IMG/VR virus record: IMGVR_UViG_3300047375_000738
DNA: 64,000 bases
Strand: one strand, 5' to 3'
Source of the DNA: a virus
Taxonomy: Duplodnaviria > Caudoviricetes
Positions 34,672-63,337 of this stretch are shown in pieces. Position numbers and translations under genes: made by a program. The notes beneath the pieces were generated by a model. It had not been told where the DNA came from and searched no databases. It saw nothing but the letters and a program-made list of their open reading frames with translations. Each line of letters begins with the position of its first letter. Positions within the stretch are counted from its first letter, which is position 1.

Positions 34672-34700
34672 ATTATAACAAACTATTGATAGATTGTCAA
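34672..34700 (-). promoter_or_regulatory. Consensus sigma70 promoter, leaderless
   Basis: Minus strand TTGACA (34700-34695), 17 nt, TATAAT (34677-34672); ATG 6 nt later at 34665. Confidence 0.85.
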
Positions 34701-37600: not shown

Positions 37601-37610
37601 TTAAGCCCCC

Positions 37611-47308: not shown

Positions 47309-47991
47309 TAGCAACTAAACTCCTGTTGTAGTTTAATGTTATCAAAGAACTCTTTCTTTGTACCTGCATCATCTTTAAATGCGCCACGTAGTACTGTAGT
47401 TTGTGTTAAACTACTATGTGCCATAATACCGCGATTCTCACAACAACCGTGTGTTGCTTGAATATAAACACCTAAATGTTCTGCACCAGTTGCGGCTTGG
47501 ATCTCACGTGCAATATCATTTGCAAGTTCTTCCTGTAGTGTGCCACGACGTGAACACCATTGTGCAATACGTGTGTACTTGCTTAGACCAATTAACTTAT
47601 CAGCGGCAATAATACCAATGTATGCAATACCTGCTACTGGCTGGTGATGATGCGAACACATACTTTTAAGTTCACTGCGTACTACTAACATACCTTCATA
47701 GCGATCATCGCTATCATTAGGAAATGCTGTTGCACTTGGCGCTGGATCATAACGTCCTGCCATAATTTCATTAAAGTACATTTTAGCAAGACGTCTTGCT
47801 GTGCCTTGTGAGTTAGGATCGTTATGACGATCAATCAATAGTGCATCTAGTACACCTTCAAATGCTGTAGTAGCATTATCAATAAGTTCTTCTTTATCAC
47901 CATTTTGTAATACTTGTGAAATATTGTCGCCTGCCCAGTGACGAATGCCTAGTTCATCTAGGCGGGCTTTTAGTTGTTCTGCTTTGCTCAT
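47308..47991 (-). CDS. folE: GTP cyclohydrolase I
   Basis: SMCSHHHQP, IGLSKYTRI, LQE, HGCCENRG. Confidence 0.95.
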   Translation of the reverse strand: MSKAEQLKARLDELGIRHWAGDNISQVLQNGDKEELIDNATTAFEGVLDALLIDRHNDPNSQGTARRLAKMYFNEIMAGRYDPAPSATAFPNDSDDRYEGMLVVRSELKSMCSHHHQPVAGIAYIGIIAADKLIGLSKYTRIAQWCSRRGTLQEELANDIAREIQAATGAEHLGVYIQATHGCCENRGIMAHSSLTQTTVLRGAFKDDAGTKKEFFDNIKLQQEFSC

Positions 47992-48030: not shown

Positions 48031-48059
48031 ATAGTAACATTATTTAGATCTTTTGTCAA
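48031..48059 (-). promoter_or_regulatory. Sigma70-type promoter of folE-queE
   Basis: TTGACA (48059-48054), 17 nt, TACTAT (48036-48031); SD GGAG. Confidence 0.75.
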
Positions 48060-48256
48060 CTAAAATGTTCATTTAACATTTCAATACGATCTGTTGCGGC
48101 AGCCATTTTATCAAGTTCTTCTTGAATAGCTTCAACAATATCGCTATGCTCACCGATACCAACACTTTGATGCATATACACCAAGATGTTTGTTTTTGCT
48201 CTTTCGAGCTCTCCTTCGGCATGCATACGAGCTGCCTTTACTAGTTGTTCACGCAT
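48056..48256 (-). CDS. Small hypothetical protein
   Basis: 66 aa, VGIGEHSDIVEAI; SD AGGAG. Confidence 0.75.
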   Translation of the reverse strand: MREQLVKAARMHAEGELERAKTNILVYMHQSVGIGEHSDIVEAIQEELDKMAAATDRIEMLNEHFS

Positions 48257-48491
48257 TGTTTTCTCCTTTTAATGCTTTTATAGTTTGTTGTTTCTCTCTG
48301 TCTCTTACAAAGAGATCTTCACCAGCATACGTACTACATTTATCTAATGCATCTTCGATATGCCATAGTAACTCATACAAGTCTTTTTTACAACCCCAAG
48401 TAACAAATCCGTCCATTCGAGGATCGCTTTCAGCAAAACTAATTTTGTTTACGCCTTGTTTTAGGTCACTTAGACTCCAGTCAACTATCAT
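48249..48491 (-). CDS. Small hypothetical protein
   Basis: Start reassigned to ATG 48491 (ATGA overlap with the PRTase stop). Confidence 0.7.
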   Translation of the reverse strand: MIVDWSLSDLKQGVNKISFAESDPRMDGFVTWGCKKDLYELLWHIEDALDKCSTYAGEDLFVRDREKQQTIKALKGENNA

Positions 48492-49006
48492 TCGTCGTAT
48501 TCCCAAGGAAACACAATCCAAGTATCTTCTTCGCTAGTGTCAATTTCTTTCCAATAATAATCAACACCGTCAAATTTTGTATGTGTCTTTTCACACATGG
48601 TAGCAAAGCGAACATTGTCATTCCAAACATCATTCCAGCCTTCGCTATTGGGCAAGCAACCGCTTTGCCAATCTTCTCTAATCCATTTGAACGTAGCACC
48701 TGTATCGTTAATGTCATCTACAATTAGTATTTGCTTTCGCATTTTAGGTTTGCATTGTCCATCGTGATATCCAAAAGCATCTTCGGCCATCCAGCAGTTT
48801 GATTCTTGTGTAGCATTGTCACGCAAACGCACATCTAGCGCATAATGATTACAGTTGAGCAGATGACTAAGCATTACACTAATTGGTAATCCACCTCTAT
48901 TCAATCCAACAATATAATCGGGCTTCCAGCCATCTTTATACATTTTTAACGCAATATTAGTTGCAGCCGTATTAACGTCTTGCCAACTATAGTATGTTTT
49001 TACCAT
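48488..49006 (-). CDS. Purine (xanthine/guanine-type) phosphoribosyltransferase
   Basis: PDYIVGLNRGG, ILIVDDINDTGAT (PRPP loop), WIVFPWE as in Gpt-like enzymes. Confidence 0.85.
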   Translation of the reverse strand: MVKTYYSWQDVNTAATNIALKMYKDGWKPDYIVGLNRGGLPISVMLSHLLNCNHYALDVRLRDNATQESNCWMAEDAFGYHDGQCKPKMRKQILIVDDINDTGATFKWIREDWQSGCLPNSEGWNDVWNDNVRFATMCEKTHTKFDGVDYYWKEIDTSEEDTWIVFPWEYDE

Positions 49007-49008
49007 TT

Positions 49009-49191
49009 TTAATACTCTACTTTTTGTTGTAAATATTGTATTTCGACGTGTTTTGCATTTATTTCGTCATTAAACCCATCTTCTAATCTATATGACACGC
49101 CTTGTTTATACAATTTAATATTTAATTTATTCATATTGTTTACTAAAGTGTTTAGTTCTTTAACCATTTGTTCTACTTTTGGATCTTTCAT
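49009..49191 (-). CDS. Small hypothetical protein
   Basis: Start ATG 49191 coupled by TAATG to metK. Confidence 0.65.
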   Translation of the reverse strand: MKDPKVEQMVKELNTLVNNMNKLNIKLYKQGVSYRLEDGFNDEINAKHVEIQYLQQKVEY

Positions 49192-50282
49192 TACCAACCG
49201 AGCCTTTCCCAAGGAACATCTTTATTACCAAAGTGTCCGTATGTACAGTTCTTACTATAGTTATTATACTTGAATAAATCGAATCTGTCAATGATTCCTT
49301 TTGGAGTCAAGTCAATCTCACGTTCAATAAACTTTGCAATACTAGCATTGTGTCCATTCGAATCAACATAAATGCTTGTAGGTTCTTTAACACCAATAGC
49401 ATAGCTCAACTGGATATTGCACCAGTCTGCCATATTGTCTGCTACTACATTCTTGGCGAGCCATCGTGCCATGTAGGCGGCACTTCTGTCGACTTTTGTT
49501 GGATCTTTGCCACTAAACGCACCGCCACCATGAGGAGCAAAACCCCCATAAGTATCAACAATAATTTTCCGCCCAGTAACACCTGCATCACCGTCAGGAC
49601 CACCAATAACGAAATTTCCAGTAGGGTTAAGATGCCATGTAGTTCTTTCATCAACTAAGTCTCCTAATTCTTCCATTGCGGCAAGTTTACAAAGATGTCT
49701 TGCTTCTTCTACGTTGCCTTCTGTGTGCTGTGTACTTATCACAACTTGATCAATACGTTTGATCACACCGTCACGTCTAGCACCATAGTACTCGACGCTT
49801 ACCTGACTTTTAGCATCTGGTCCTAGTATAGCACCACGTTTGCCTTTTAAGTTCTTTAGTATCTCATGACTGTAATGAATAGGTGCTGGCATCATACTGT
49901 CTGTATGATTACAAGCATAGCCAAACATCAAGCCTTGATCGCCTGCACCAAAGTCGTCTGTACCTAGTGCAATATCACCACTTTGTGAGTGAATCTCATT
50001 ATAGATACGCAAATTATCCCAATGAAACCCTTCTTGTTCATAACCAATCTCTTTAACTTTGTCACGCACGATTTGTTTAACTTTGTCCTTAGTGACATTA
50101 AAGTTTTTTACTTCGCCCGCTAACGTTACATGGTTAGTGGTTACAAGTGTTTCAATGGCAACACGAGAAGTTTCGTCTCCATTAGCAAGCCCGGCATCCA
50201 CTAGTGCATCAGATATTTGATCTGCTACTTTATCGGGGTGTCCGTCACTAACACTTTCGCTTGTAAAGATATAGTTGTTCAT
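49191..50282 (-). CDS. metK: S-adenosylmethionine synthetase
   Basis: FTSESVSDGHPDK, GAGDQG, GPDAKSQ, TGRKIIVDTYGG, GGGAFSGKD, YGHFG. Start ATG 50282. Confidence 0.97.
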   Translation of the reverse strand: MNNYIFTSESVSDGHPDKVADQISDALVDAGLANGDETSRVAIETLVTTNHVTLAGEVKNFNVTKDKVKQIVRDKVKEIGYEQEGFHWDNLRIYNEIHSQSGDIALGTDDFGAGDQGLMFGYACNHTDSMMPAPIHYSHEILKNLKGKRGAILGPDAKSQVSVEYYGARRDGVIKRIDQVVISTQHTEGNVEEARHLCKLAAMEELGDLVDERTTWHLNPTGNFVIGGPDGDAGVTGRKIIVDTYGGFAPHGGGAFSGKDPTKVDRSAAYMARWLAKNVVADNMADWCNIQLSYAIGVKEPTSIYVDSNGHNASIAKFIEREIDLTPKGIIDRFDLFKYNNYSKNCTYGHFGNKDVPWERLGW

Positions 50283-50503
50283 TTTTTCCATTCATCCATT
50301 TCTGTTTTTATTTCATCGCCTTCGCGATCATTTGCAATTGACATTGCCATACTTTGTATATCGTCAAGTAATGCATTTGCAATCGTCTTGTCGTATGTTT
50401 TACCACTTAGTTCGCTATATTGATTGCGTATACGATGTAGTTCGATAGCCTTATCTTTCATAACTTCGAGTCTTTGTATTAGTTCTTCAATAGTGTGTAG
50501 CAT
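50279..50503 (-). CDS. Small coiled-coil hypothetical protein
   Basis: 74 aa, overlapped at both ends in the operon. Confidence 0.7.
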   Translation of the reverse strand: MLHTIEELIQRLEVMKDKAIELHRIRNQYSELSGKTYDKTIANALLDDIQSMAMSIANDREGDEIKTEMDEWKK

Positions 50504-51555
50504 TAAAAGTAATCCTCCAATGTGCCTTTACGCTTTGTATCTAGTGTAGCACAGTGGAAGCCTCCGCTCATACTACGTGCTTGACGCATAGGTAGTCCAA
50601 TAGTATCAATGCCGTGCTTGCCTAATATACGTCTTAGTGCTTCTTGTTTTTCATCTACAACAACCAGTTCTTCGTTAACACTTAGGAAGTTAAGTCCAAT
50701 GTACGGGCTACACGGAGCAACACCTGTGTTTGCTGGCGGTACGTGTAGGTCTTCTTCGCCTACCCAAATCTTGTCCCAGTCTTTGAAAATAGGTGGGTAC
50801 CAATCTTCACTTAGTCTGCCTGCGTTTAACAGCACCAATCCAGGGCGTAGCGGCAGTACTGTGCTATCAAAGTGTGCAAAGCTATAGTACTTCTCAGCAA
50901 CGTGTAGGCGATAGCCTTTGGGCTCTAAGATAGTCTTAAGCCACTGAAAGCCTAGTTGGTTGCCACTGTTGCTTACTTGGCACAACAAGTCACGTCCCAT
51001 ACGAACAATATTTGGTGCATCAAAAATAATCTCTTTGTTTACTAGTGTAGCATCACGTCTGTCTTCTAGTTGATAGTTGTCATCTGTTAAGATAGGCTTT
51101 GGAGCATTGATCCACTGTGTACCTTCTTGCATCCAGCGATACAAATGTTCGTAGTATGCTCTAGTTTCAAAGTATCTTGCTCGCATAGGGCTTGGACATT
51201 CAATAATCATATTATCCAACGGCAGCAGCAAATCTCTTGGACAGAATGTATACCACCCTGTTGTTTCCCACTCTGGAGTGCTAAACTTTTTGTTGTGATC
51301 TACAGGCTCTGGACGCATTGTTTTTACACCTAGTCCTTGTAGACATTTTTCTAGCCCGTCAAGGTCTTCGTTTGCTTCGTCTACAATCCATTGTGCAATA
51401 GGTTGTCCATCAAACTGTTTGATGTCTTCTGCTTCTTCACCACCGTAGATAAAGCTGTGTGTACTCTTATTCATAGTAGGATGTACACAATTATCAGCAG
51501 TGCCGATGATAATTTCTTGCAATGGATCCCAATCGTTGTTACTCTGTACTGGCAA
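50503..51555 (-). CDS. Amidinotransferase (glycine/inosamine-phosphate amidinotransferase family)
   Basis: NDWDPLQEIIIG, CPRD, FDAPN, AHFDST, GGFHCATLD: Asp-His-Cys triad intact. Confidence 0.92.
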   Translation of the reverse strand: MPVQSNNDWDPLQEIIIGTADNCVHPTMNKSTHSFIYGGEEAEDIKQFDGQPIAQWIVDEANEDLDGLEKCLQGLGVKTMRPEPVDHNKKFSTPEWETTGWYTFCPRDLLLPLDNMIIECPSPMRARYFETRAYYEHLYRWMQEGTQWINAPKPILTDDNYQLEDRRDATLVNKEIIFDAPNIVRMGRDLLCQVSNSGNQLGFQWLKTILEPKGYRLHVAEKYYSFAHFDSTVLPLRPGLVLLNAGRLSEDWYPPIFKDWDKIWVGEEDLHVPPANTGVAPCSPYIGLNFLSVNEELVVVDEKQEALRRILGKHGIDTIGLPMRQARSMSGGFHCATLDTKRKGTLEDYF

Positions 51556-52441
51556 AATTTAATCCTTTTATATACTGTTTATGGAAACTTAATCTATTTG
51601 TATTTCCGCCGCGATTATATTGGTTATATATATTTTTATCATCTATACCAAAAATTACTGTCGCACTTGGATTTATTCCTAGCTCATTACAAAATTCTTT
51701 TTGTTTTTGTATATATTTTTGTGGTATGTAGTCGGGTGTAAAGTTTTCAAGATACTTTATGCCTAATGCTGCACCTAGTTTGTTGTTATATGAAATTTTA
51801 TGGTATACAAACATAGTATCGTCGTCATCGACTTTAGTATATCTTATACCAATACGTGCATATGCTACTGGAAAACTTTTACTAAGGCTAAAAGTTACAT
51901 CAGTTATACAATTATATGCAATATCAATTGATACGCCGTAACAAGCACCAAAATATGCACAATCTACCAGTACTGGTATTCCAAGCTCACAGCACTCACG
52001 CATAAGTTCATGATACTTAGAGTGCTTGTCGCCTGTATCTGCAAATGGTAGACTAATTACTACTGCATCTGCTTTGTGCAACGGTTCATCTTCTAAATAT
52101 GCCCAAACATATTTGTCTCTCCAAGCAAGTTTATGATACATATACTCGCCTTTAAAACAGCGGAAGCGTCTTTTAGAATTTTTCATATAAAATTTATCAA
52201 ATGATTCGGTTGTTCCGTTGCTATAGCATTTGTATTTAAAATCTTCTAACCCTGTAATACTATTAACTGTTGATTTTTTAATCCATTTGTCGTAGTCATA
52301 CAAAAATTCGTCAATAATGTTGTCATTATTGAGACATTGTAGATCTAATGTATTACGTAAAAGTTTTGTAGTTTCTGGATCGCTTATTGCAAAAGCACTT
52401 CCAAAATCCATATGTCTTTTATCATTGGGTATATTTGTCAT
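51539..52441 (-). CDS. Compact fold-type I PLP-dependent enzyme (aminotransferase/decarboxylase-like)
   Basis: SNGTTE, LVDCAY, FSLSKSF (PLP Lys), RIG. Confidence 0.72.
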   Translation of the reverse strand: MTNIPNDKRHMDFGSAFAISDPETTKLLRNTLDLQCLNNDNIIDEFLYDYDKWIKKSTVNSITGLEDFKYKCYSNGTTESFDKFYMKNSKRRFRCFKGEYMYHKLAWRDKYVWAYLEDEPLHKADAVVISLPFADTGDKHSKYHELMRECCELGIPVLVDCAYFGACYGVSIDIAYNCITDVTFSLSKSFPVAYARIGIRYTKVDDDDTMFVYHKISYNNKLGAALGIKYLENFTPDYIPQKYIQKQKEFCNELGINPSATVIFGIDDKNIYNQYNRGGNTNRLSFHKQYIKGLNFASTE

Positions 52442-53036
52442 CTTCGTCCAAAAATGTTATTTGCGAAACAATACATTCACTTGGACCAAAGTTTGACATT
52501 CCGTGCCATGTATCGCCTTTCCACGTATATGTATCACCTGCTTGCCAGTGTGTATATACTTCGTCGCCAACTTGTAACACTTGTCCTCTATCCCAATCCG
52601 ACATCATAGTAACAGTGCGACATATATCGTCTGCTTGATCCTCTGTGATATTATTAAATTTTACAAATGTAGCATATGTGTCAAAGTGCCACATTAAACT
52701 GCATCCGGGTGTTAGTTTTAAAAAGTTATAGTTAAATTTCATATGTGCATAAGGTACAATAACACTAGTTAAACCTTTTGTAAGCTCAGGTCTAATACAC
52801 ATATAATGTAAACTACCTTCTTTTGGTACTTTCCATTGTTTGTACATTGCTTCTAATGCTTTTTTATTTTTTGTAGCAAATGTATCCCAACTACTATCTT
52901 CTGGGATTTCATCTGTCATATGTGTAGCTTCCCAATCCAGTGTTAGTAGATCGTTTTTGCTCCATGTAACTTCGTCTACTGAACTTTCTTCAGCACCGTG
53001 TTGTTTCCATTCTTCGTAACTGCGCATGTCCATCAT
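52422..53036 (-). CDS. Fe(II)/2OG oxygenase-like protein
   Basis: KLTPG..LMWHFD...WHGMSN. Confidence 0.65.
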   Translation of the reverse strand: MMDMRSYEEWKQHGAEESSVDEVTWSKNDLLTLDWEATHMTDEIPEDSSWDTFATKNKKALEAMYKQWKVPKEGSLHYMCIRPELTKGLTSVIVPYAHMKFNYNFLKLTPGCSLMWHFDTYATFVKFNNITEDQADDICRTVTMMSDWDRGQVLQVGDEVYTHWQAGDTYTWKGDTWHGMSNFGPSECIVSQITFLDEDDKYTQ

Positions 53037-53968
53037 GCTTCTCCTTTCAAGTGCGCCTCTATATATTGCCTATTTGGTATTTTATTTGTTTTTAGTATTT
53101 TTATAAGTTGATTTTTATCAGACTGCTCTAAGTTTATTATATTAAGTTTCTTTGGATATGTCAAGACATTTGTTGTCCATTTTTTATAATTATTAGCAAA
53201 TTCACACATATCAGGTAATCCTTGCCAGTTATTTTTATGTAGCGTTGTATGAATAGTATAATCAAATGTATCAGCAATTTCGTCTAATGTTTTGACTACT
53301 CTACTCCAAACACTACCGCCACGTACTTGTTCGTTTAATGCGCCTACTCCGTCAATACTAACTGTAAAATGTACATGTTTGCATTGACTAAGTAGTCTAT
53401 AATCATCTTCAACAAGTTTGTGCATACCATTAGTAAAGTACTCAACTTCTAAATGTTCTAAGGTGTCAAATGACTCTAGGAAGCGCCTATGTCTATTAGT
53501 CATTAATGGTTCGCCACCTAAGAAAACAACCTTACTAATGCTTTCTGGTATATTTCTAAATTCTGTAGTACTGGTAATTCCTTTTTTAGGAGGCAAGTCT
53601 GGGTTTTTCTTTACCCACCAACTGCTACTCCACTCTTCCCAACAGCCATCGCATGTAAGATCGCATATGTTATCAAATCCTACTTCAAGATATCTAAGTT
53701 TGATATCCATTGGGTATGTTTTATTAAACCATTCTCGTAAACTTTCCTTGCCGAGACTTTCTTCATGCTTGCACTTTGCACAATTTGGATCATCGATAGT
53801 AAAGTTCTCACGTAGTGCTTTATATTCGTCACTGTATAGTATACTGCCTACATCACCGTCAAATGTTTGTATAGGTGTTTTATAACGGCAGCAAGGGTAG
53901 ACACGATTGCCTCCCCTAATGTTTGTATGACTATATAATGCTGAACAACTAGAATGGAGTTTCATCAT
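53033..53968 (-). CDS. Radical SAM protein with N-terminal twitch-like domain
   Basis: SC...YPCC...CAKC; CDLTCDGC; LGGEPL. Confidence 0.9.
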   Translation of the reverse strand: MMKLHSSCSALYSHTNIRGGNRVYPCCRYKTPIQTFDGDVGSILYSDEYKALRENFTIDDPNCAKCKHEESLGKESLREWFNKTYPMDIKLRYLEVGFDNICDLTCDGCWEEWSSSWWVKKNPDLPPKKGITSTTEFRNIPESISKVVFLGGEPLMTNRHRRFLESFDTLEHLEVEYFTNGMHKLVEDDYRLLSQCKHVHFTVSIDGVGALNEQVRGGSVWSRVVKTLDEIADTFDYTIHTTLHKNNWQGLPDMCEFANNYKKWTTNVLTYPKKLNIINLEQSDKNQLIKILKTNKIPNRQYIEAHLKGEA

Positions 53969-54305
53969 TTTCTTGGTGATTTCCTTTATAGTCTTGCTCT
54001 ACCATTTTGTAAATTGTTTTAAAATTTTCGTATGCTTTTTCTAAAGCTGGGTAATATCCAACCATGTTATGTATTTTATCAATGCTAGGCATTGTATCTA
54101 CAAACTCAGTTTGTTCCCAGGTAATATTGTCAGCCCAATGTGTATCTTCGAGTGTGATAGTACTTGTTGTATCGATTGTAATAGTATCAATGCTGCTAGT
54201 ATCGATACTACTTATAGTAATGTCTGACACATCAAATGTTAAATCCTCGTCAATACTAGTATCAATTGTGATTGTGTCTTCTAAGTTCCAGTTCGTACTG
54301 GTCAT
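53949..54305 (-). CDS. Hypothetical protein with Asp/Thr/Ser/Ile low-complexity N-terminus
   Basis: Repeated DTITIDT-like units, then a helical C-terminus YPALEKAYENFKTIYKMV; SD GAGG. Confidence 0.7.
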   Translation of the reverse strand: MTSTNWNLEDTITIDTSIDEDLTFDVSDITISSIDTSSIDTITIDTTSTITLEDTHWADNITWEQTEFVDTMPSIDKIHNMVGYYPALEKAYENFKTIYKMVEQDYKGNHQENDETPF

Positions 54306-55137
54306 TGCACATTTCCTCTATTGTTTTTGTAAGTGTAACATGCTCGCTAAGAGTATCTACAACACTGCTCACAGCATCTCCTTCTCTACGAGGTGCTTCT
54401 ATAATATTTAATTGTTTACCAGTTACTTTTTGCATAGTGTCAATAACTTCTCTAACACTATATCCTACATTACTGCCTAAACATTCATATGGCGTATTTG
54501 CGGGGCCTCGTTCCACGGCTGTGACAATGGCGCCAGCCAAATCAACAACGTGAATATAATCACGAATGCAAGTGCCATCCCTAGTATCATAGTCCGTACC
54601 AAAGATCTTAAGGTCTGGTATCTTTTCACTAGCCACCATAGCAGCGACACGAATAAGATGGGTAGGAGCACCCAATTGACGATGAACACCGTCAGTACCA
54701 GATACGTTAAAAAATCTAAAGATGGTGTATCCATCTGCTTTCTCCTTAATTACATCTTCTGCTGCCACTTTACTGCGAGCATAAGGTGATGCCATTTCCC
54801 ACGCACTACTTGTACTAGCAAAAATTACATGTGGTGTTGTTGTCATTGATAGTAAGTTTGCTGTACCGCCTACATTTACTCTATAATACTCTGCTGGTTC
54901 TTTTAAACTATCAGGCACTACACTGCGTCCTGCAAGGTGTACAATAGCATCGTAGACGCCACCGGCATATTGACCAGTAACGTCTACGTTATAATACTCG
55001 TCACAGAATTCCTTAACATCATTAGTTTCGCCGTGGATTTCTGTATCCCAACCTATAACTTTATGACCTTTTTCTTTAAGTAATTTGCATACATGGCTAC
55101 CAATGTAACCGCTTGCACCTGTAACTAATACTTTCAT
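54262..55137 (-). CDS. galE: UDP-glucose 4-epimerase-like NAD-dependent epimerase
   Basis: TGASGYIG, HLAG, YARSK (YxxxK), FNVSG, IRDYIHV. Confidence 0.88.
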   Translation of the reverse strand: MKVLVTGASGYIGSHVCKLLKEKGHKVIGWDTEIHGETNDVKEFCDEYYNVDVTGQYAGGVYDAIVHLAGRSVVPDSLKEPAEYYRVNVGGTANLLSMTTTPHVIFASTSSAWEMASPYARSKVAAEDVIKEKADGYTIFRFFNVSGTDGVHRQLGAPTHLIRVAAMVASEKIPDLKIFGTDYDTRDGTCIRDYIHVVDLAGAIVTAVERGPANTPYECLGSNVGYSVREVIDTMQKVTGKQLNIIEAPRREGDAVSSVVDTLSEHVTLTKTIEEMCNDQYELELRRHNHN

Positions 55138-55737
55138 TTATTGCTCTCGCAACTTTCCGGATAATGCTTTTAATAGCAATCCATATGCTGGTAAGAAGAT
55201 AATCAAACCTACTGCAATCTTTAGTACAGTTTGTGATCCTGCAATCTCCATCCAGTTTGCTGCCATATACTCGTCTGCTGAGTTGTTAAACGCAACAAAG
55301 AAGAATGTGTAACTATCAATTACGTTTGCAACTACAGTTGACAACGCTGGTGCTAACCACCATGCACGATACTTTTCACGCAAGTATTGGAATACATATA
55401 CGTCTAGCATTGTACCAACTGCATATGCTGTAGCACTTGCAAAGCCAATACGTAGTGCAACACTCTGCGGTGCACCTTCTAGCAATACTACTGCAATACT
55501 ACCAATGATAGCAAGCGGATAGGCTGCTGCGATAGTTGCTCGTGCAATATTCTTACCTAGCATACGCACAGTAAGATCGGTTGCAAGAACAACAATCGGG
55601 AATGTAAATGCAGCCCAGGTTAGTTTTACTCCAAAAAATTCAACTGGAATACTAACTAAAGCATTACTTACTACAACGACGATAACATGCAACAGCGCAA
55701 GTTTAATCATCATACTTTTATCAATATCTTTAAACAA
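55138..55737 (-). CDS. yhhQ: Queuosine-precursor (preQ0/preQ1) transporter, YhhQ family
   Basis: Six hydrophobic segments; VSNALVSIP, TWAAFTFP...ATDLTVR, RIGFAS..AY..G..LD..VFQ, DSY.FF..AF. Confidence 0.85.
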   Translation of the reverse strand: MFKDIDKSMMIKLALLHVIVVVVSNALVSIPVEFFGVKLTWAAFTFPIVVLATDLTVRMLGKNIARATIAAAYPLAIIGSIAVVLLEGAPQSVALRIGFASATAYAVGTMLDVYVFQYLREKYRAWWLAPALSTVVANVIDSYTFFFVAFNNSADEYMAANWMEIAGSQTVLKIAVGLIIFLPAYGLLLKALSGKLREQ

Positions 55738-55754
55738 TTATTTCTCCTTCTTGT

Positions 55755-56921
55755 CTAATACTTGTTAACCGCTACATGATCTCTATAACGATTATCATCT
55801 CGCTTCCATTGTTCTCCGTTACCTTGCATAATATCAATGTAACGATCAATAGTAGCACTTGTCCAGTCACTAATTTTTCCCATATCTTTGTGTGGGCCTT
55901 CTAGTAACTTGTCAAGTTTGTTTCCTGCATCTTCAACACTCCAAGGTATATACATACGCTCATGACAGTTGGAAAAGATTTCAGGGAAACTTCTATAAGC
56001 AGGAAATAATACATTACAACCTAATGCATCAGCTTCGCTTACAGTATTACTTGTCCAGTCTTGTAAAGCACAGTTAAACAATACTTTACTATCGTTGACA
56101 ATATGGTAATATTCTTCTTTTTTAAGATTTTCATAAATCCTTAGTACACCTTTGCTTACTAAGTCGTTTGCACGTTCAATATACTTAGGATTATTACTAC
56201 GTAAAGGACCGCCTTGTAGTACAGCAAACTCAACATTTGTGTCTGCATACTTCTCAGCAAGATCCATATAAAAATCAGGTTGTTTTTCTTGATCCCAACG
56301 TGCTGCAAACACAACACGGTTGCTACGTGACTCCCAAAACGTTGGTGCTTCGCCGGATCGTTGTACAACTTCTCTTTTGTCAAAGGCTAATCCACTAATA
56401 TTGTAGAGCGGCGCCTTCCAATTAGCTACTTTCATATTAGCAATCATTTCTTCATTACTTGCTAATACTCCTGTAACAAATTCGTTGCACATTTCTTCGT
56501 ACAAACTCATCCATTTACCCATACCCCATACATGAACAAAGTCATCTGGGTCTACAGCTTGTGCAAGGCATCTAATAAACACCTTTGGCTGTTGGGTTGC
56601 TGGAATTTGATCCATAATGTACGGCAATGACTCCATACCAGGCTGAAACATATCTTCAAAGAAAATAACGTCTTCAGCTGTTACTTCGCCGTTGCGCATC
56701 ATTTGCACCAAGTTCATCATCTGCGACATAGCAAAGTAACTACGTCCGTGTGCATCAAGAACTTGTCCAACACTAATAGATTTAGTGTCATCAATTGTTG
56801 TACCAGGTACAACTACATAGTCAATACCACGTCTTTTGAAAGCACGTTCACTCCAGTCTTGCAACTGGAGTGTATAACGTCCTTCATATGGCTCTAAGCC
56901 CATATAAAATAGTTTACGCAT
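55755..56921 (-). CDS. GT-B (GT4-like) glycosyltransferase
   Basis: VVFAARWDQEKQP; FNCALQDWTSNTVSEADALGC corresponds to the GT4 E-x7-E donor-binding region. Confidence 0.75.
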   Translation of the reverse strand: MRKLFYMGLEPYEGRYTLQLQDWSERAFKRRGIDYVVVPGTTIDDTKSISVGQVLDAHGRSYFAMSQMMNLVQMMRNGEVTAEDVIFFEDMFQPGMESLPYIMDQIPATQQPKVFIRCLAQAVDPDDFVHVWGMGKWMSLYEEMCNEFVTGVLASNEEMIANMKVANWKAPLYNISGLAFDKREVVQRSGEAPTFWESRSNRVVFAARWDQEKQPDFYMDLAEKYADTNVEFAVLQGGPLRSNNPKYIERANDLVSKGVLRIYENLKKEEYYHIVNDSKVLFNCALQDWTSNTVSEADALGCNVLFPAYRSFPEIFSNCHERMYIPWSVEDAGNKLDKLLEGPHKDMGKISDWTSATIDRYIDIMQGNGEQWKRDDNRYRDHVAVNKY

Positions 56922-57121
56922 TAGCGTCTCCGAGGTTTACCACCACGTGCTTTTGCACGTAAGTAATTTTGATACTTCTGATACGCCTGCCATACAGGGT
57001 CAGATTTTTTATAAAGTGACTTTTCATCATACACTTTACCTTCAAAGCGACAGTAGTCGCGGAATTCGTCCAGATCGTTGAATACTTTCTGATACGCATC
57101 ACGATTAAATGTGATATTCAT
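56921..57121 (-). CDS. Small hypothetical protein
   Basis: 66 aa, SD AAGG, TAATG coupling to the GT gene. Confidence 0.7.
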   Translation of the reverse strand: MNITFNRDAYQKVFNDLDEFRDYCRFEGKVYDEKSLYKKSDPVWQAYQKYQNYLRAKARGGKPRRR

Positions 57122-57134
57122 TTACCTTATTCCT

Positions 57135-57560
57135 TTATGCTGGGTAAACAATTTGACAGCCGTTTTCGCCATCTTCGGCAACATCAATAACAACAAACCG
57201 GCTGGGGTATTTGTTGTTGATGTGTAGATACAAATCATCCGCAATCATTTCGCATGACTTGTAATCTAGTTCGAGAATATCTTCTTTATAAAGATTCTCT
57301 AACCAACGTTTGAATTGAATAAATTCAATGTCTCTATCGTTGTGTGTTACTTGAATTTGTACTTTAAAGTGAAACGTATGTCGATGTGGGTATCCTAAGA
57401 AACTTACATCGTATTCGTCACCTGTTGCCAGCGCAGGATCGTCGAGTGCTGCTGGATATTTGTGAATACCTTCTTTAGTAAAGGTTACCCAAATACTACG
57501 TTTTGCGTTTTCTAGTGCGTTTGCCATTTTAGCGTCCTCTTCTCTCATGCGCCGTTGCAT
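57135..57560 (-). CDS. T-fold QueD-like protein, candidate DpdL-type
   Basis: LGYPHRHTF (LxxxHRHxF), IEFIQFK, SCEMIA, EDGENG. Start is probably 57560 (leaderless) or 57527 (SD GAGGA), not 57587, which lies inside the promoter. Confidence 0.68.
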   Translation of the reverse strand: MQRRMREEDAKMANALENAKRSIWVTFTKEGIHKYPAALDDPALATGDEYDVSFLGYPHRHTFHFKVQIQVTHNDRDIEFIQFKRWLENLYKEDILELDYKSCEMIADDLYLHINNKYPSRFVVIDVAEDGENGCQIVYPA

Positions 57561-57566
57561 ATATGT

Positions 57567-57595
57567 ATAATAACGTTCTTGTTGCATATTGTCAA
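57567..57595 (-). promoter_or_regulatory. Sigma70-type promoter
   Basis: TTGACA (57595-57590), 17 nt, TATTAT (57572-57567). Confidence 0.65.
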
Positions 57596-58119
57596 GTGAT
57601 AATTGTGTCTGTAGTGTATTTAGACCAGTCTGTAAAAACAGCCTTCTCTTTTAAATCATGTAGTCTATGAACCCATACACCAGGGTTACTTGCATCAAAG
57701 TCTTTATCGTCAATTTTTAAACAAGCATTATATCCAAGTTGATCGATATACGGAAGTTTTACGCTAATCATTGGAATAAAGCGGTTGTGTTCTGTGAATC
57801 CACTTTCTAGCAACCCTTCAATTTGGCTTGCATCAGCATCTAGTGTGACCCAATAGCCTTCTTTCAATAATGGAAATATCATAGCTTCCCAAGGTTTCCA
57901 TTCGCTTTCTGTATTGCTAGTGACATTGAAACTCATATTAGCACCACAGTAGATATGTTTACATCCTTGCATTTCAGCCATGGCTATTACTTCGTCTGGA
58001 TCCATGGCACCTACAACGAATAGTGTTTTCTTTCCAAACTGTGGTGTATGTTCAACTTCTGTTCCAACAAAATATTGAACACTTTCGATATCGGTTCCTT
58101 GATCGTAAACTCTTTTCAT
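57592..58119 (-). CDS. Hypothetical protein in the deazaguanine module
   Basis: 175 aa; GTEVEHTP, HIYCGAN and NPGVWVH look like conserved motifs; SD GAGG. Confidence 0.75.
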   Translation of the reverse strand: MKRVYDQGTDIESVQYFVGTEVEHTPQFGKKTLFVVGAMDPDEVIAMAEMQGCKHIYCGANMSFNVTSNTESEWKPWEAMIFPLLKEGYWVTLDADASQIEGLLESGFTEHNRFIPMISVKLPYIDQLGYNACLKIDDKDFDASNPGVWVHRLHDLKEKAVFTDWSKYTTDTIIT

Positions 58120-58289
58120 GATTTCCTCGTTTTATATTGTTCTTGCCAAAGATCCCAACGTTTTTTATAGTATTCGTTGATTTCTTTTTTAGGGTAGTTT
58201 TTTTCTTCCATGTTAGCAATGATAGTTTCGATATCTTCTAGTGCCATTTCAATTGTTTCTAAACGAACTTTTTTCTCATTTGGATCCAT
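58116..58289 (-). CDS. Small hypothetical protein (57 aa, below ORF-track cutoff)
   Basis: Manual translation MDPNEKKVRLETIEMALEDIETII...WQEQYKTRKS; SD GGAG; ATGA overlap downstream. Confidence 0.7.
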   Translation of the reverse strand: MDPNEKKVRLETIEMALEDIETIIANMEEKNYPKKEINEYYKKRWDLWQEQYKTRKS

Positions 58290-58488
58290 TTACTCCATTC
58301 TCCATTGCATTTATTTTATTCTGTATTCGATATAGTTCGTCCTTGTAGAACAACTTTTGTGTTTTTAAAGTTCTTACTTCTTGATCTACATAAAGTCTTT
58401 TTTCTAGTTCTATAATTTTTTCGTCTAATGCTCTATGTTTTTTTGTAAGCTCTGCTAGATATGCAGTTAATCCTTCGAGACTTGTCAT
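58276..58488 (-). CDS. YdcH/DUF465-like small coiled-coil protein
   Basis: L..KHRALDEKI..LE...V..LK.QKL.YKDEL pattern. Confidence 0.65.
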   Translation of the reverse strand: MTSLEGLTAYLAELTKKHRALDEKIIELEKRLYVDQEVRTLKTQKLFYKDELYRIQNKINAMENGVNGSK

Positions 58489-60038
58489 TTATACTCCCAT
58501 AATTCGTTAAATTTAGTTTGTGCATTAACAGCCTTCTTGCCAATATTTAGACGTGTTCCGATTACGTGCATCCAATAGCGATCAAAGTCTTCAATAAGTT
58601 TTAAACTTTTTTCTCGATCTTTTAAGCTAAAGATTTCGTCTACTATTTCTTTAAACTTAACTACACCATACTTTTGGAAGTCAGTATCGTTAATTAGCAT
58701 GTACGGAAACTTGCCATTGTCGTATTCTCTGTTTGCACGTTGTGTACTTTCGATGTGCATCCAGACATTATGGCCCATTTGTAGTGCATAGCTAAAGCTA
58801 TCCCAACTGGTGCTATCTTTTTTACGCACAGTAGTATTACCATCAGCATCTAGTAGAGGATTGCCTTCTTTATCTAAGTCAACATCACCTGCTTTTACTT
58901 TTATAGTACCGACTTTGTTTTTATCACCTTCTGCATAGATACAGATATCATTCATCTTGCAATGTTTGCTAATAGGAGAGTCTTCAAATGCATCTAGTAT
59001 GTTGTCAGTTATAACTGCATCACTAAACTTGCGTTTATCTGTAGCATACTTCAATGAATCGGCACCCGGAGCCATCATGTAACTCCATTTGCCACGATCT
59101 TCGATGCGGATACTGTGATAAATCTGTCCGTTTGCTGTAGCAAGAAACGGAGATGCACAGTCGTATGTAATCATAAAGTTTTTGTTATGATATTTACGTA
59201 CTGCACGTTGAATGTCTGTAAGTAATACAGCCCATTCTAACTTACTAGTACCCAGGAAGTGCATTACATCATGCAATCCTTCTTCTAGCAAGCCATCGTG
59301 TATCATATGCACAAGGCGCCTTAAGATAAGATGCACATCACACATGTTTTGTCCGCCCATTGCCCACCCGTTAAAGTGTGTGTCTGGGTATTTTGCTGGA
59401 TCACAATAGTCCTTAAACTCTTCGTACCAACTATCAGCATCAGTATGAGTACTGCCTTGTAATACGTTGAGTACTTTAAAGTTACCACGTCTATTATCCA
59501 TGTAATAACGTGCATTAATATGTGTTGCATCAACAGCATCTTGATAGCTATGAATATTTGCTGCATCTGCTGCTTTTTTGTCTTGGAATGTCCATGTTGG
59601 AATATCGAGCATCATGCCGTAATCCATATATTCTTCCATCCAGTTTACAACTAGCTCACGTTTCTTTGCAGCCAGTGGACAATCTGGATTAGTCCAATCA
59701 CCTGGCCATAAGCCTTTAGCAATCTGGAAGCCTCCGGAGTCTCCAAGTAACCATGAATTCTCTCTATCACGCTTACGTAGCATATCTTCTTTTTCACTGA
59801 ACTTATTAGTGTCAAGCTCGGCATGTCCTGCAGAATAGAGCGCCCATTTGTAGTGGAACGCTCCTTCTTTTGAATTCAAAAAGTTCATACTTTCCATTTT
59901 GTCGATACCAACTGGAATTCTAGCTGGCTCGACATACTCTTGGAAACGTTGTTTGCCTATAAAAGTAGCATAGAAGCCACTAATGCTAGGCAAAAATACT
60001 GCATAGTCCTTCTGTGCTTCTGTGAGATCTGTATTCAT
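58485..60038 (-). CDS. Guanine transglycosylase, TGT/DpdA-like (probably DNA-acting)
   Basis: LGDSGGFQ, MMLDIP, VLQG, WAMGG, MHFLG and YDCASP map to TGT catalytic motifs. Long, divergent, and next to the clamp and que genes. Confidence 0.82.
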   Translation of the reverse strand: MNTDLTEAQKDYAVFLPSISGFYATFIGKQRFQEYVEPARIPVGIDKMESMNFLNSKEGAFHYKWALYSAGHAELDTNKFSEKEDMLRKRDRENSWLLGDSGGFQIAKGLWPGDWTNPDCPLAAKKRELVVNWMEEYMDYGMMLDIPTWTFQDKKAADAANIHSYQDAVDATHINARYYMDNRRGNFKVLNVLQGSTHTDADSWYEEFKDYCDPAKYPDTHFNGWAMGGQNMCDVHLILRRLVHMIHDGLLEEGLHDVMHFLGTSKLEWAVLLTDIQRAVRKYHNKNFMITYDCASPFLATANGQIYHSIRIEDRGKWSYMMAPGADSLKYATDKRKFSDAVITDNILDAFEDSPISKHCKMNDICIYAEGDKNKVGTIKVKAGDVDLDKEGNPLLDADGNTTVRKKDSTSWDSFSYALQMGHNVWMHIESTQRANREYDNGKFPYMLINDTDFQKYGVVKFKEIVDEIFSLKDREKSLKLIEDFDRYWMHVIGTRLNIGKKAVNAQTKFNELWEYK

Positions 60039-60790: not shown

Positions 60791-60819
60791 ATTGTACTGC
60801 ATATTTGGTATAAAGTCAA
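60791..60819 (-). promoter_or_regulatory. Sigma70-type promoter of the clamp-TGT unit
   Basis: TTGACT (60819-60814), 17 nt, TACAAT (60796-60791); SD AGGAG. Confidence 0.65.
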
Positions 60820-63173: not shown

Positions 63174-63337
63174 TAGTTCTCCATTGCACAAATAGCAGAT
63201 TCACCTTCAGTAAAACTTGCTTCTAATACTGCTTTATTGGTATGACAATTAATTTCGCTATTGTAACTGTTGTAGTATGTAACTTTATATTCATCGAACA
63301 CTGTAACATACGAAACTACTAATAATACCCAAGTCAT
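63173..63337 (-). CDS. Small hypothetical protein with hydrophobic N-terminus (54 aa)
   Basis: Manual translation MTWVLLVVSYVTVFDEY...NC...ICAMEN; coupled at both ends (ATGA, TAATG). Confidence 0.65.
   Translation of the reverse strand: MTWVLLVVSYVTVFDEYKVTYYNSYNSEINCHTNKAVLEASFTEGESAICAMEN

What the first reader, a model, noticed from the sequence alone, without database searches (positions are those of the whole stretch)
48056..60038. Candidate new 7-deazaguanine hypermodification system: TGT/DpdA, T-fold and YhhQ linked to a glycosyltransferase, GalE, PLP enzyme and amidinotransferase
Seen: from the promoter at 57567-57595, genes run on one strand with overlaps or gaps of 17 bp or less down to 48056: T-fold, small ORF, GT-B, yhhQ, galE, acidic ORF, radical SAM, 2OG oxygenase, PLP enzyme, amidinotransferase, small ORF, metK, small ORF, PRTase, two small ORFs. 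The TGT-like gene lies just upstream and folE-queE just downstream. Known: FolE/QueD/QueE make CDG, phage DpdA transglycosylases insert 7-deazaguanines into DNA, and YhhQ imports preQ0/preQ1. Inference: the extra enzymes may decorate the inserted base, giving a glycosylated or otherwise extended 7-deazaguanine beyond those I know from phage DNA.
Basis: partly seen in the sequence, partly recalled or inferred. Interest (0 to 1): 0.9.

Follow-up and report, generated by a model that had tools for sequence, protein, structure and literature searches.

The report
Sugar transferase inside phage deazaguanine genes
An uncultured marine giant phage carries the known gene set for swapping guanine in its DNA for a 7-deazaguanine. 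A sugar-transferring enzyme always travels with that set, so a sugar-bearing purine never yet described is a testable possibility, but the amidinotransferase genes next to it are a movable add-on.

Summary
The gene run is real. The window is part of a 170-kb IMG/VR phage contig, about 48% complete.

Core genes:
- The 517-aa protein has a tRNA-guanine transglycosylase (TGT) fold (Z 17) with the DSGGFQ and YDCAS motifs, but it has no Pfam TGT match and no zinc motif.
- The T-fold protein belongs to the DpdL family. It is 54% identical to ACP17 DpdL, 33% to phiST DpdL, and has the signature LGYPHRHTF.
- FolE, QueE, MetK, YhhQ, the GalE-like epimerase, the purine PRTase and a StrB1-like amidinotransferase are confirmed.

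The glycosyltransferase (GT):
- The 388-aa GT is a GT4-like GT-B enzyme.
- It follows DpdL in 58 of 58 related metagenomic loci with enough sequence.
- It lies within 1-4 kb of DpdL, in four gene orders, in ACP17, PA5oct, Phosso, BUDD, X1, BCSR5 and BUCT-ZZ01.
- Sugar-nucleotide genes flank the block.

The other extra genes:
- The radical SAM, cupin, aminotransferase and amidinotransferase genes form a mobile four-gene cassette.
- Of 50 evaluable loci, 21 have no deazaguanine gene nearby. In some of these it sits among NDP-sugar tailoring genes.
- YhhQ, MetK and Prs are sporadic.

No chemistry is known. PA5oct DNA has an undefined modified G. This scan has noted the GT/DpdA/DpdL pairing before in at least 82 other genomes. 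I class it as a new variant of a known kind.

The parts
58485..60038 (-). DpdA-like guanine transglycosylase, 517 aa. D100 lies in LLGDSGGFQ and D293 in ITYDCAS.
   Evidence: AF2 model, pLDDT 80. The top 50 Foldseek PDB hits are all TGT. VIA Z 17 over about 300 aa. BFVD hits include phage TGT/DpdA and Vibrio phage nt-1. It is 35% identical to PA5oct gp316, and its motifs align with ACP17 gp123. No Pfam, NCBIfam or PHROG match.
57592..58119 (-). Conserved 175-aa partner protein of unknown function (p175)
   Evidence: Present in 77 of 82 loci. It is 36% identical (E 2e-22) to the ACP17 gp122 region, between FolE and DpdA. More than 4,000 homologues, none with a Pfam family. No usable Atlas hit.
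57135..57587 (-). DpdL-family T-fold protein (predicted CDG decarboxylase) with LGYPHRHTF at residue 64. The true start is probably an internal Met.
   Evidence: 54% identical to ACP17 gp125 and 33% to phiST CGPG_00067. Alignment A3 shows L..HRH.F in six of the seven DpdLs (PA5oct has HFH) and SHC..HGY in three of the four QueDs. The signature is defined in PMC10516641.
56921..57121 (-). Conserved small basic ORF between DpdL and the GT
   Evidence: Found in 61 of 82 loci at the same position.
55755..56921 (-). GT4-like GT-B glycosyltransferase, 388 aa, with R208/K213 and E296 conserved
   Evidence: AF2 model, pLDDT 78. Best fold matches are BshA, PimA, MshA and GlgM at E about 1e-11. Homologous to ACP17 gp124 (E 8e-16) and PA5oct gp317 (E 4e-10). 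70% identical to the BUCT-ZZ01 gene next to DpdL. Present in 58 of 58 loci.
55138..55737 (-). YhhQ/Vut_1 family transporter (queuosine-precursor importer family), an accessory gene
   Evidence: Pfam PF02592, 1e-24. Found only in L003, L012 and L086 among related loci.
54262..55137 (-). GalE-like NDP-sugar 4-epimerase
   Evidence: Pfam Epimerase 2e-35. TIGR01179 9e-62. It lies downstream of the GT in the near clade, and a paralogue lies upstream of the clamp gene in the distant clade.
53949..54305 (-). Conserved acidic repeat protein of unknown role
   Evidence: Found in 42 of 82 loci. Weak match to PA5oct gp319.
50503..53968 (-). Mobile four-gene cassette: twitch radical SAM (53033-53968), cupin/HxD..H protein (52422-53036), short class I aminotransferase-like protein (51539-52441) and StrB1-like amidinotransferase (50503-51555)
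   Evidence: Identities. It is a tight unit in 68 loci: 29 inside the block, 21 clearly outside. Outside loci that were examined neighbour NDP-sugar and radical SAM genes.
49191..50291 (-). MetK (SAM synthetase), an accessory gene whose position varies
   Evidence: All three Pfam domains, up to 1e-57. It lies after QueE in L006, L007, L085 and L092.
48488..49006 (-). Purine (6-oxopurine-type) phosphoribosyltransferase, a core gene
   Evidence: Pfam 6e-12. XPRT family 1.5e-10. PDB 1vdm 3e-9. Found in 50 of 82 loci. A PRTase also sits in the BUCT-ZZ01 module and, more weakly, in PA5oct.
47308..47991 (-). FolE (GTP cyclohydrolase I)
   Evidence: Pfam 6e-38.
46415..47314 (-). QueE-like radical SAM enzyme (CDG synthase)
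   Evidence: phrog_2076, 4e-51.
60816..61748 (-). PRPP synthetase (Prs), an accessory gene
   Evidence: Pfam 3e-53. Found in 1 of 82 related loci.
61745..63741 (-). Conserved sugar-activation genes upstream of the clamp gene: a short UDP-Glc/GDP-Man dehydrogenase-like protein, a eukaryotic-type phosphomannomutase and a cytidylyltransferase-like nucleotidyltransferase
   Evidence: Pfam. Present in 33, 43 and 59 of 82 loci respectively.

Best explanation
This is a DpdA/DpdL-type 7-deazaguanine DNA-modification module of an uncultured marine jumbo phage, sitting in its replication region.

Inferred pathway:
1. FolE, a QueD encoded elsewhere or supplied by the host, and QueE turn GTP into 7-carboxy-7-deazaguanine (CDG).
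2. The DpdL-family T-fold protein converts CDG. The published prediction is decarboxylation to 7-deazaguanine; this has not been shown.
3. The divergent TGT-fold protein exchanges guanine in phage DNA for that base.
4. The purine PRTase most likely recycles the released guanine. Prs would supply PRPP in this phage.
5. A GT4-type glycosyltransferase is an integral member of the module. Fed by the phage's own NDP-sugar genes, it probably adds a sugar to the deazaguanine, either on the free base as HuiG does or on DNA as QTMAN does on tRNA. The result would be an undescribed sugar-bearing purine.

Shown here: folds, family memberships, gene linkage and distribution.
Inferred: every chemical step, the DNA target, and the GT's acceptor.

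The radical SAM, cupin, aminotransferase and amidinotransferase cassette is a separate, movable module. Its chemical logic (C-H or C-OH to keto to amine to guanidine) suits tailoring of a sugar or another small molecule. Its link to the deazaguanine base is only positional. YhhQ and MetK are sporadic accessories that fit deazapurine uptake and SAM supply.
For: - TGT fold, Z 17, with all top hits TGT and the catalytic Asp motifs in place.
- DpdL membership by homology and signature.
- FolE and QueE.
- The core order clamp, DpdA, p175, DpdL, s66, GT, acidic ORF, PRTase, FolE, QueE is conserved in 80 IMG/VR loci.
- The GT is present in 58 of 58 loci with enough sequence.
- The GT lies next to DpdA or DpdL in ACP17, PA5oct, Phosso, BUDD and BUCT-ZZ01, and within about 1.5-3 kb in X1 and BCSR5, in four gene orders.
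- GT4 fold with conserved donor-site residues.
- Sugar-nucleotide genes flank the block.
- PA5oct, which carries the homologous genes, has DNA resistant to G-containing restriction sites (PMC12191111).
- ACP17 dpdA plus dpdL alone gave no dDG in E. coli, and the authors suggested missing enzymes (PMC10516641).
- Precedents for GTs acting on 7-deazapurines: HuiG and glycosylated queuosine in tRNA.
- The cassette is mobile.
Against: - There is no chemical data for any phage with this module.
- DpdL's activity has never been demonstrated.
- 7-deazaguanine itself offers no obvious O- or N-acceptor at C7, so the GT's acceptor is unknown.
- phiST has DpdL, lacks this GT, and makes plain dDG. RHph_I1_18 and Ahp1 also lack the GT.
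- The 517-aa protein matches no TGT HMM and lacks the zinc motif.
- QueD was not found in the 170-kb contig.
- Much of the GT linkage comes from related phages with inherited synteny.
- A more distant GT relative sits in a non-deazaguanine context in PhiXhv-12.
Confidence: 0.55

Rival explanations
1. This is an ordinary DpdL-type system that makes plain 2'-deoxy-7-deazaguanosine, as in phiST. The GT, epimerase and sugar-nucleotide genes serve another target, such as virion proteins, the host envelope or another metabolite, and merely share the early or replication gene region.
For: - phiST makes dDG with DpdL and no GT.
- The genome holds many other sugar and radical SAM genes elsewhere.
- 7-deazaguanine has no evident acceptor group.
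- A distant GT relative lies beside GlmS and a deacetylase in PhiXhv-12.
Against: - The GT stays beside or within a few kb of DpdA/DpdL through four gene orders in seven cultured lineages, and in 58 of 58 metagenomic loci.
- ACP17 and PA5oct carry the GT between DpdA and DpdL, with no other sugar genes annotated around it.
Confidence: 0.25
2. All the extra enzymes (GT, GalE, radical SAM, 2OG oxygenase, PLP enzyme, amidinotransferase) act in one pathway on the inserted base. In this sub-clade that would give, for example, a guanidino-sugar-bearing deazaguanine.
For: - In 29 loci the cassette lies inside the block, between the GT/GalE genes and the PRTase/FolE genes.
- The aminotransferase plus StrB1-like amidinotransferase logic fits conversion of a keto-sugar into a guanidino-sugar (established streptomycin pathway chemistry).
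- Outside the block, the cassette neighbours NDP-sugar dehydratase and DegT-type genes.
Against: - 21 of 50 evaluable loci have the cassette with no deazaguanine gene within 5-10 kb.
- Only 2 of the 80 best DpdA loci carry the full cassette.
- The same contig has a second amidinotransferase in a separate sugar and radical SAM cluster.
- There is no QueC or QueF to supply an amine-bearing base.
Confidence: 0.1
3. The module does not work by DNA base exchange. Either the PRTase and Prs convert the deazapurine base into a nucleotide for polymerase incorporation (the tubercidin TubE logic), or the products are tRNA modifications or pterin glycosides made by FolE, the T-fold protein and the GT.
For: - The PRTase is a core gene, and Prs lies upstream here.
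- The tubercidin pathway uses CDG plus a PRTase.
- Tetrahydrobiopterin glucosyltransferases appear among the GT's fold matches at ranks 39-49.
Against: - A TGT-fold enzyme with an intact Asp pair is universally present and sits beside the clamp and polymerase genes.
- QueE commits the pathway to CDG, not to pterins.
- The PRTase is most like 6-oxopurine salvage enzymes.
- There are no tRNA genes in the window.
- PA5oct DNA is modified at G.
Confidence: 0.08

Closest known systems
DpdL-type dDG system of Cellulophaga phage phiST (FolE, QueD, QueE, DpdL, DpdA3; Cui, Hutinet et al., NAR 2023, PMC10516641)
   Same: FolE, QueE, a DpdL-family T-fold protein with the LxxxHRHxF signature, and a highly divergent TGT-fold transglycosylase that Pfam does not detect. 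No full-length QueC.
   Different: - phiST has no GT4 glycosyltransferase, no p175, no PRTase and no sugar-nucleotide genes.
- Its DpdA3 has 259 aa and shows no detectable similarity to the 517-aa protein.
- Its DNA base (dDG) has been measured, whereas nothing has been measured here.
ACP17 (Busanvirus) and PA5oct (Wroclawvirus) deazaguanine gene clusters
   Same: - Homologous DpdA-like, GT and DpdL genes, with a homologous p175 in ACP17 and homologous QueE genes.
- PA5oct also shares the order acidic ORF, PRTase-like gene, QueE, p126, RNase H-like gene.
   Different: - In those phages the GT is the 342-353-aa type and sits between DpdA and DpdL.
- They have no phage sugar-nucleotide genes nearby, no YhhQ and no amidinotransferase cassette.
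- The published work names DpdL and DpdA in ACP17 but does not mention the GT.
- PA5oct's modified G is chemically undefined.
Glycosylated queuosine in animal tRNA (QTMAN/QTGAL; PMC12518689)
   Same: A glycosyltransferase adds a hexose to a 7-deazaguanine derivative that already sits in a nucleic acid. QTMAN's assignment to the GT4 family is from memory and was not checked here.
   Different: - The acceptor there is the cyclopentenediol of queuosine in tRNA.
- The phage GT family has no QTMAN_N domain.
- No queuosine side-chain genes are present.
HuiG of huimycin biosynthesis (GT with Pfam PF13439, acting on a free 7-deazapurine base)
   Same: A glycosyltransferase (Pfam PF13439) glycosylates a free 7-deazapurine base made by FolE, QueD and QueE. 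That the sugar goes to the exocyclic 2-amino group is from memory.
   Different: It belongs to an actinomycete secondary-metabolite cluster that uses preQ0 and QueC, has no DpdA and no nucleic-acid target. Homology to GT388 was not tested.
T4 alpha- and beta-glucosyltransferases
   Same: Phage GT-B enzymes that glycosylate a modified base in DNA after replication.
   Different: They belong to different GT families and act on 5-hydroxymethylcytosine. They are not among the 50 best fold matches of GT388.
StrB1 inosamine-phosphate amidinotransferase with an aminotransferase (streptomycin pathway)
   Same: amid350 matches StrB1 at E 2e-85. StrB1's GGFHCAT (Cys motif) is identical, and its HVDST aligns with HFDST here. 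It is adjacent to an aminotransferase-like gene.
   Different: It is a phage-borne four-gene cassette with a twitch radical SAM enzyme and a cupin. Its substrate is unknown.

Membership tests
TGT/DpdA transglycosylase superfamily | TIM-barrel TGT fold | tested here: met
   The top 50 Foldseek PDB hits are all TGT. VIA Z 16.6-17.3, rmsd about 4.9 A, about 300 aa aligned to bacterial, archaeal and mouse TGT. Phage TGT/DpdA entries appear in BFVD.
TGT/DpdA transglycosylase superfamily | Catalytic Asp pair in the DSGG(F/Y)Q and (F/Y)DC motifs, plus the GG substrate loop | tested here: met
   D100 in LLGDSGGFQ, GWAMGG at 224 and D293 in ITYDCAS are all invariant in 27 homologues, and they align with the same motifs in ACP17 gp123. 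The correspondence to Z. mobilis Asp102 and Asp280 is inferred from motif knowledge, not from a residue-level superposition.
TGT/DpdA transglycosylase superfamily | Match to the Pfam TGT model PF01702 | tested here: not met
   No hit by hmmscan, by genome search at E up to 1, or by profile search against PDB. The published DpdA3 and DpdA4 subfamilies also need HHpred to be detected.
TGT/DpdA transglycosylase superfamily | Zinc site CxCxxC...H | tested here: not met
   The protein has six Cys residues, at 120, 212, 233, 294, 360 and 366, and no CxCxxC.
TGT/DpdA transglycosylase superfamily | Guanine exchange on DNA | not testable with these tools
   Indirect evidence only: PA5oct DNA resists G-containing restriction sites.
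DpdL (predicted CDG decarboxylase, T-fold) | The LxxxHRHxF signature replacing QueD's CxxxHGH | tested here: met
   LGYPHRHTF at residue 64. Alignment A3 separates seven DpdLs from four QueDs. The definition comes from PMC10516641.
DpdL (predicted CDG decarboxylase, T-fold) | Homology to the named DpdLs of phiST and ACP17 | tested here: met
   54% identity, E 1e-34, to ACP17 gp125. 33% identity, E 5e-9, to phiST CGPG_00067.
DpdL (predicted CDG decarboxylase, T-fold) | Genome context of FolE, QueD, QueE and DpdA without QueC | tested here: inconclusive
   FolE, QueE and the DpdA-like gene are present. QueD is absent from the 170-kb half-genome, but a relative has it 40 kb from the block. The only QueC-like signal is a PP-loop N-terminal match covering 72 of 210 positions.
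DpdL (predicted CDG decarboxylase, T-fold) | CDG decarboxylase activity | not testable with these tools
   This activity has never been shown experimentally, even for the founding members.
GT-B glycosyltransferase, GT4-like | Two-Rossmann-domain GT-B fold closest to GT4 enzymes | tested here: met
   Best matches are BshA, PimA, MshA and GlgM, at E 2e-11 to 1e-9 and TM 0.6-0.7.
GT-B glycosyltransferase, GT4-like | Pfam Glycos_transf_1 group above its gathering score | tested here: inconclusive
   The window protein scores 18.1 bits against a cut-off of 26.4. Homologues pass: BUDD 45.7 bits, BUCT-ZZ01 28.3 and L002 31.0.
GT-B glycosyltransferase, GT4-like | Donor-binding R...K and the acidic residue of the EX7E region | tested here: met
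   R208, K213 and E296 are invariant across 23 homologues that are as little as 21% identical. The assignment of roles is inferred from knowledge of GT4 motifs.
QTMAN (tRNA-queuosine mannosyltransferase) | QTMAN_N domain PF12038 | tested here: not met
   No hit at E up to 1 in GT388 or in nine homologues, including ACP17, PA5oct, BUDD and BUCT-ZZ01.
T4 alpha/beta-glucosyltransferase | Structural similarity to AGT or BGT | tested here: inconclusive
   Neither appears among the 50 best PDB matches. Their absence from the list does not exclude similarity.
YhhQ / Vut_1 transporter | Match to Pfam PF02592 | tested here: met
   87.8 bits against a cut-off of 27.2.
Arginine-type amidinotransferase (StrB1/AGAT) | Full-length homology with the catalytic Cys and His motifs | tested here: met
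   E 2e-85 to 1bwd over residues 4-349. GGFHCAT is identical, and HFDST aligns with HVDST.
Fold-type I aminotransferase | PLP-lysine motif and a family match | tested here: inconclusive
   No Pfam or PDB match. Atlas neighbours at 0.99 are viral clusters in which 17-27% of members carry PF00155. An SLSKSF motif lies at residue 185.
2OG/Fe(II) oxygenase (cupin) | HxD...H triad and a family match | tested here: inconclusive
   H117, D119 and H178 are present. LpxO scores E 0.011. Only a motif-level alignment to the window's Asp/Arg-hydroxylase paralogue was obtained, at E 0.28.

The most novel reading that the evidence does not exclude
The phages that carry the DpdA, DpdL, GT4 and p175 module replace guanine with a sugar-bearing 7-deazaguanine, which would be the first glycosylated purine in DNA. 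This includes the very abundant marine jumbo phages and the cultured PA5oct, ACP17 and BUCT-ZZ01. In the sub-clade of this window, the sugar would be tailored further, by the inserted radical SAM, cupin, aminotransferase and amidinotransferase cassette, into an amino- or guanidino-sugar.
Probability: 0.35. Interest if true: 0.85.

Novelty: new variant of a known kind. Interest (0 to 1): 0.68.

Why it matters
Eight 7-deazaguanine derivatives are known in phage DNA, and none carries a sugar. All known glycosylated DNA bases are pyrimidine derivatives.

The module is common. The DpdA-like family has more than 7,800 metagenomic members and the p175 family more than 4,000.

It also occurs in phages already in culture, including the therapy candidate PA5oct. 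PA5oct's modified G is chemically undefined, and END nucleases target it.

Identifying the base would have several consequences:
- It would explain why dpdA plus dpdL alone failed to give dDG in E. coli.
- It would extend the chemistry of anti-restriction DNA modification.
- It would supply new DNA-modifying enzymes.

The finding also separates what is truly linked to dpdA (the GT, p175 and the PRTase) from what is only inserted there (the amidinotransferase cassette).

Tried and rejected
- Megablast of the 12-kb block against GenBank phages found no match.
- phmmer and a profile of the 517-aa family against PDB sequences found no TGT. hhalign against phiST DpdA3 gave no similarity, probability 1.4. 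BLASTP against the BUDD DpdA aligned only the DSGG region, E 2.
- Pfam did not recognise the ACP17, BUDD, PA5oct or phiST DpdAs either.
- p175 has no Pfam, NCBIfam or PHROG family, no usable Atlas hit, and no annotated homologue among 4,104 relatives.
- I rejected a QueC reading of the PP-loop protein at 33778-34665. Only 72 of 210 profile positions match, it lies 12-14 kb from the block, and it sits beside a SET-domain gene.
- I looked for a hydroxymethyl-pyrimidine route that could give the GT an acceptor. There is no thymidylate-synthase homologue in this contig, and relatives have one that scores like a true ThyA.
- The radical SAM enzyme shows no sequence similarity to BtrN. Its best PDB hit is SkfB at E 0.004, so the dehydrogenase analogy is only a suggestion.
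- A QueD near the cassette in L094, L099 and L100 turned out to be a QueD plus FNR pair separated from the cassette by UvdE, so it is not a real link.
- I did not run a complex prediction, because the report makes no binding claim.

Full report
**What the window is.** The window lies on a 170-kb linear IMG/VR viral contig that CheckV rates as 48% complete. It is about half of a jumbo phage of roughly 350 kb. The finding's genes all lie on the minus strand. There is no near-identical GenBank phage.

**Check of the observation.** Every listed gene exists at the stated coordinates.
- Firm identities:
  - YhhQ/Vut_1, 1e-24.
  - GalE-like epimerase, 2e-35. TIGR01179 scores 9e-62 but falls under its cut-off.
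  - A radical SAM enzyme with CX3CX2C, in the twitch family NF033640 at 8e-50.
  - MetK with all three domains.
  - A purine PRTase.
  - FolE, 6e-38, and QueE-like, PHROG 4e-51.
  - These rest.
- The amidinotransferase matches StrB1 (1bwd) at E 2e-85. GGFHCAT is identical, and HFDST aligns with HVDST.
- The 'PLP enzyme' is supported only by language-model neighbours named class I/II aminotransferase and by an SLSK motif.
- The '2OG oxygenase' is supported only by an HxD...H motif and a weak LpxO match.
- The promoter-like site at 57595-57567 is present. Such sites are no more frequent here than in shuffled sequence. Two perfect ones lie inside the run, so this need not be a single-promoter operon.

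**The TGT-like protein (58485-60038).**
- It matches no HMM library.
- An AF2 model (pLDDT 80) has tRNA-guanine transglycosylases as its 50 best Foldseek PDB hits.
- It aligns about 300 residues to bacterial, archaeal and mouse TGT at Z about 17.
- In BFVD it hits phage TGT/DpdA entries, including Vibrio phage nt-1.
- The motifs LLGDSGGFQ (D100), GWAMGG and ITYDCAS (D293) are invariant in 27 homologues. They align with the same motifs in ACP17 gp123.
- There is no CxCxxC zinc motif.
- It is 35% identical to PA5oct gp316.
- The family has more than 7,800 metagenomic members.

**The T-fold protein (57135-57587).**
- It belongs to the DpdL family, not to QueD.
- It is 54% identical to ACP17 gp125 and 33% to phiST CGPG_00067. 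Cui et al. named both of these DpdL.
- It carries their LxxxHRHxF signature. True QueDs in the same alignment have SHC..HGY.
- No QueD lies in the 170-kb contig. A relative has a QueD plus FNR pair 40 kb from its block.
- The only QueC-like signal is the PP-loop N-terminus of a 295-aa protein 12-14 kb away.

**The glycosyltransferase (55755-56921).**
- The AF2 model (pLDDT 78) is a GT-B fold closest to GT4 enzymes: BshA, PimA, MshA and GlgM.
- R208, K213 and E296 are invariant across homologues that are as little as 21% identical.
- The protein is homologous over its full length to ACP17 gp124 (E 8e-16) and PA5oct gp317 (E 4e-10). Those two are 37% identical to each other.
- It is 70% identical to a gene next to DpdL in the T4-like cyanophage BUCT-ZZ01.

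**Distribution of the core genes.**
- I fetched 80 IMG/VR loci whose DpdA-like gene is 56-88% identical.
- They share the core order clamp, DpdA-like, p175, DpdL, small ORF, GT, acidic ORF, PRTase, FolE, QueE, p126, RNase H-like.
- In all 58 loci with at least 1.8 kb downstream of DpdL, a GT of this family follows it. Twenty are the 388-aa type and 38 are the 353-aa type.
- Among cultured phages the GT sits in four arrangements:
  - Between DpdA and DpdL in ACP17 and PA5oct.
  - Just upstream of DpdA in BUDD.
  - Just downstream of DpdL in Phosso and BUCT-ZZ01.
  - About 1.5-3 kb from DpdL in X1 and BCSR5.
- Proximity kept through this rearrangement argues for functional coupling.
- DpdL also occurs without the GT in phiST (where dDG was measured), RHph_I1_18 and Ahp1.
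- p175 has a homologue in ACP17 that overlaps the annotated gp122 (36% identity, E 2e-22).
- Sugar-activation genes lie upstream of the clamp gene in most relatives: a cytidylyltransferase-like protein, a phosphomannomutase and a short UDP-Glc/GDP-Man dehydrogenase-like protein. The epimerase lies either after the GT or before the clamp gene.

**The accessory genes.**
- YhhQ appears in three related loci. Prs appears in one. MetK changes position.
- The radical SAM, cupin, aminotransferase and amidinotransferase genes form a tight unit in 68 loci.
  - 29 copies lie inside the deazaguanine block.
  - 21 have at least 5 kb on both sides and no core gene.
  - 18 are too short to judge.
- Outside the block, the loci I examined place the cassette among homologues of this phage's other radical SAM/SPASM, Asp/Arg-hydroxylase, NDP-sugar dehydratase and DegT-type genes. 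The own contig has a second amidinotransferase in such a cluster.
- Only 2 of the 80 best DpdA loci hold the whole cassette.
- Its enzyme logic suits turning a hydroxyl or keto group of a sugar or other small molecule into an amine and then a guanidine. That is inference from streptomycin-type chemistry. The radical SAM enzyme is not detectably BtrN-like.

**Mechanism.** The following steps are inferred:
1. FolE, QueD and QueE make CDG.
2. DpdL converts it. The published prediction is decarboxylation to 7-deazaguanine; this is unproven.
3. The TGT-fold enzyme swaps the product into DNA.
4. The purine PRTase recycles the released guanine.
5. The GT adds a phage-made sugar to the base, either before or after insertion.

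Support from the literature:
- PA5oct DNA resists enzymes with G in their sites, and the base has not been identified (PMC12191111).
- ACP17 dpdA plus dpdL gave no dDG in E. coli, and the authors suspected missing enzymes.
- That paper mentions neither a glycosyltransferase nor a PRTase.
- I found no paper describing a glycosylated deazaguanine in DNA.
- Precedents for GTs acting on deazapurines exist: HuiG on a free base and glycosylated queuosine in tRNA. This GT family lacks the QTMAN_N domain.

The main weaknesses are that no chemistry exists and that 7-deazaguanine offers no obvious acceptor group for a sugar.

**Verdict.**
- The block is a known kind of system, a DpdA/DpdL deazaguanine module, in a new variant with an integral GT4 enzyme, p175 and a PRTase.
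- The amidinotransferase cassette, YhhQ, MetK and Prs are add-ons.
- This scan has already noted the GT/DpdA/DpdL pairing in at least 82 other genomes.
- What is specific to this window is the cassette inserted in the block and the evidence that it is mobile.

Noticed in passing
window 13751-19668; own contig (G000) 92-116 kb = L153, L154: The phage carries many paralogous radical SAM/SPASM enzymes of 394-468 aa and an Asp/Arg-hydroxylase-type cupin. Beyond the window there is also an NDP-sugar 4,6-dehydratase/epimerase, a DegT-type aminotransferase fragment and a second amidinotransferase. Together they form a large sugar or small-molecule tailoring cluster whose product is unknown.
   Followed up: partly
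window 33246-34665: A 295-aa PP-loop ATPase matches only the N-terminal third of the QueC model (22.6 bits). It lies next to a SET-domain protein (E 8e-12). I do not read it as QueC.
   Followed up: partly
window 57592-58119; L084:6216-6695: p175 has a full-length homologue in Acidovorax phage ACP17 (36% identity). It overlaps the annotated gp122, whose start looks to be called too far downstream. This is an unrecognised conserved partner of DpdA and DpdL.
   Followed up: partly
window 53164-53136 and 49291-49263, minus strand: Two perfect TTGACA-17-TATAAT sites lie inside the gene run, upstream of the cupin gene and of the small ORF after metK. The run may have internal promoters.
   Followed up: no
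L157 (Synechococcus phage BUCT-ZZ01) 3233-10167: This T4-like cyanophage has the order QueE, XGPRT, QueD, FolE, a second GT (447 aa), a 416-aa protein, DpdL, then a GT 70% identical to this window's GT. This points to exchange of the GT between cyanophages and the marine jumbo phages, and gives a cultured test system.
   Followed up: partly
L158:705-1959 and L100:5336-7314: A canonical QueD is paired with a ferredoxin-NADP-reductase-like gene in two different phage contexts.
   Followed up: no
window 53949-54305: An acidic protein with ID(T/S)-rich repeats is conserved in the block in 42 loci and matches PA5oct gp319 weakly. It could be a DNA mimic or an anti-restriction protein, but this was not tested.
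   Followed up: no
window 34697-39389: A 967-aa subtilase-domain protein lies next to a 592-aa protein with an Mtd_N (major tropism determinant) N-terminus. These are probably tail-fibre or receptor-binding genes.
   Followed up: no
window 61745-62485: The UDP-Glc/GDP-Man dehydrogenase-like protein has only 246 aa. It has part of the NAD-binding domain and the central domain, but no match to the C-terminal domain.
   Followed up: no
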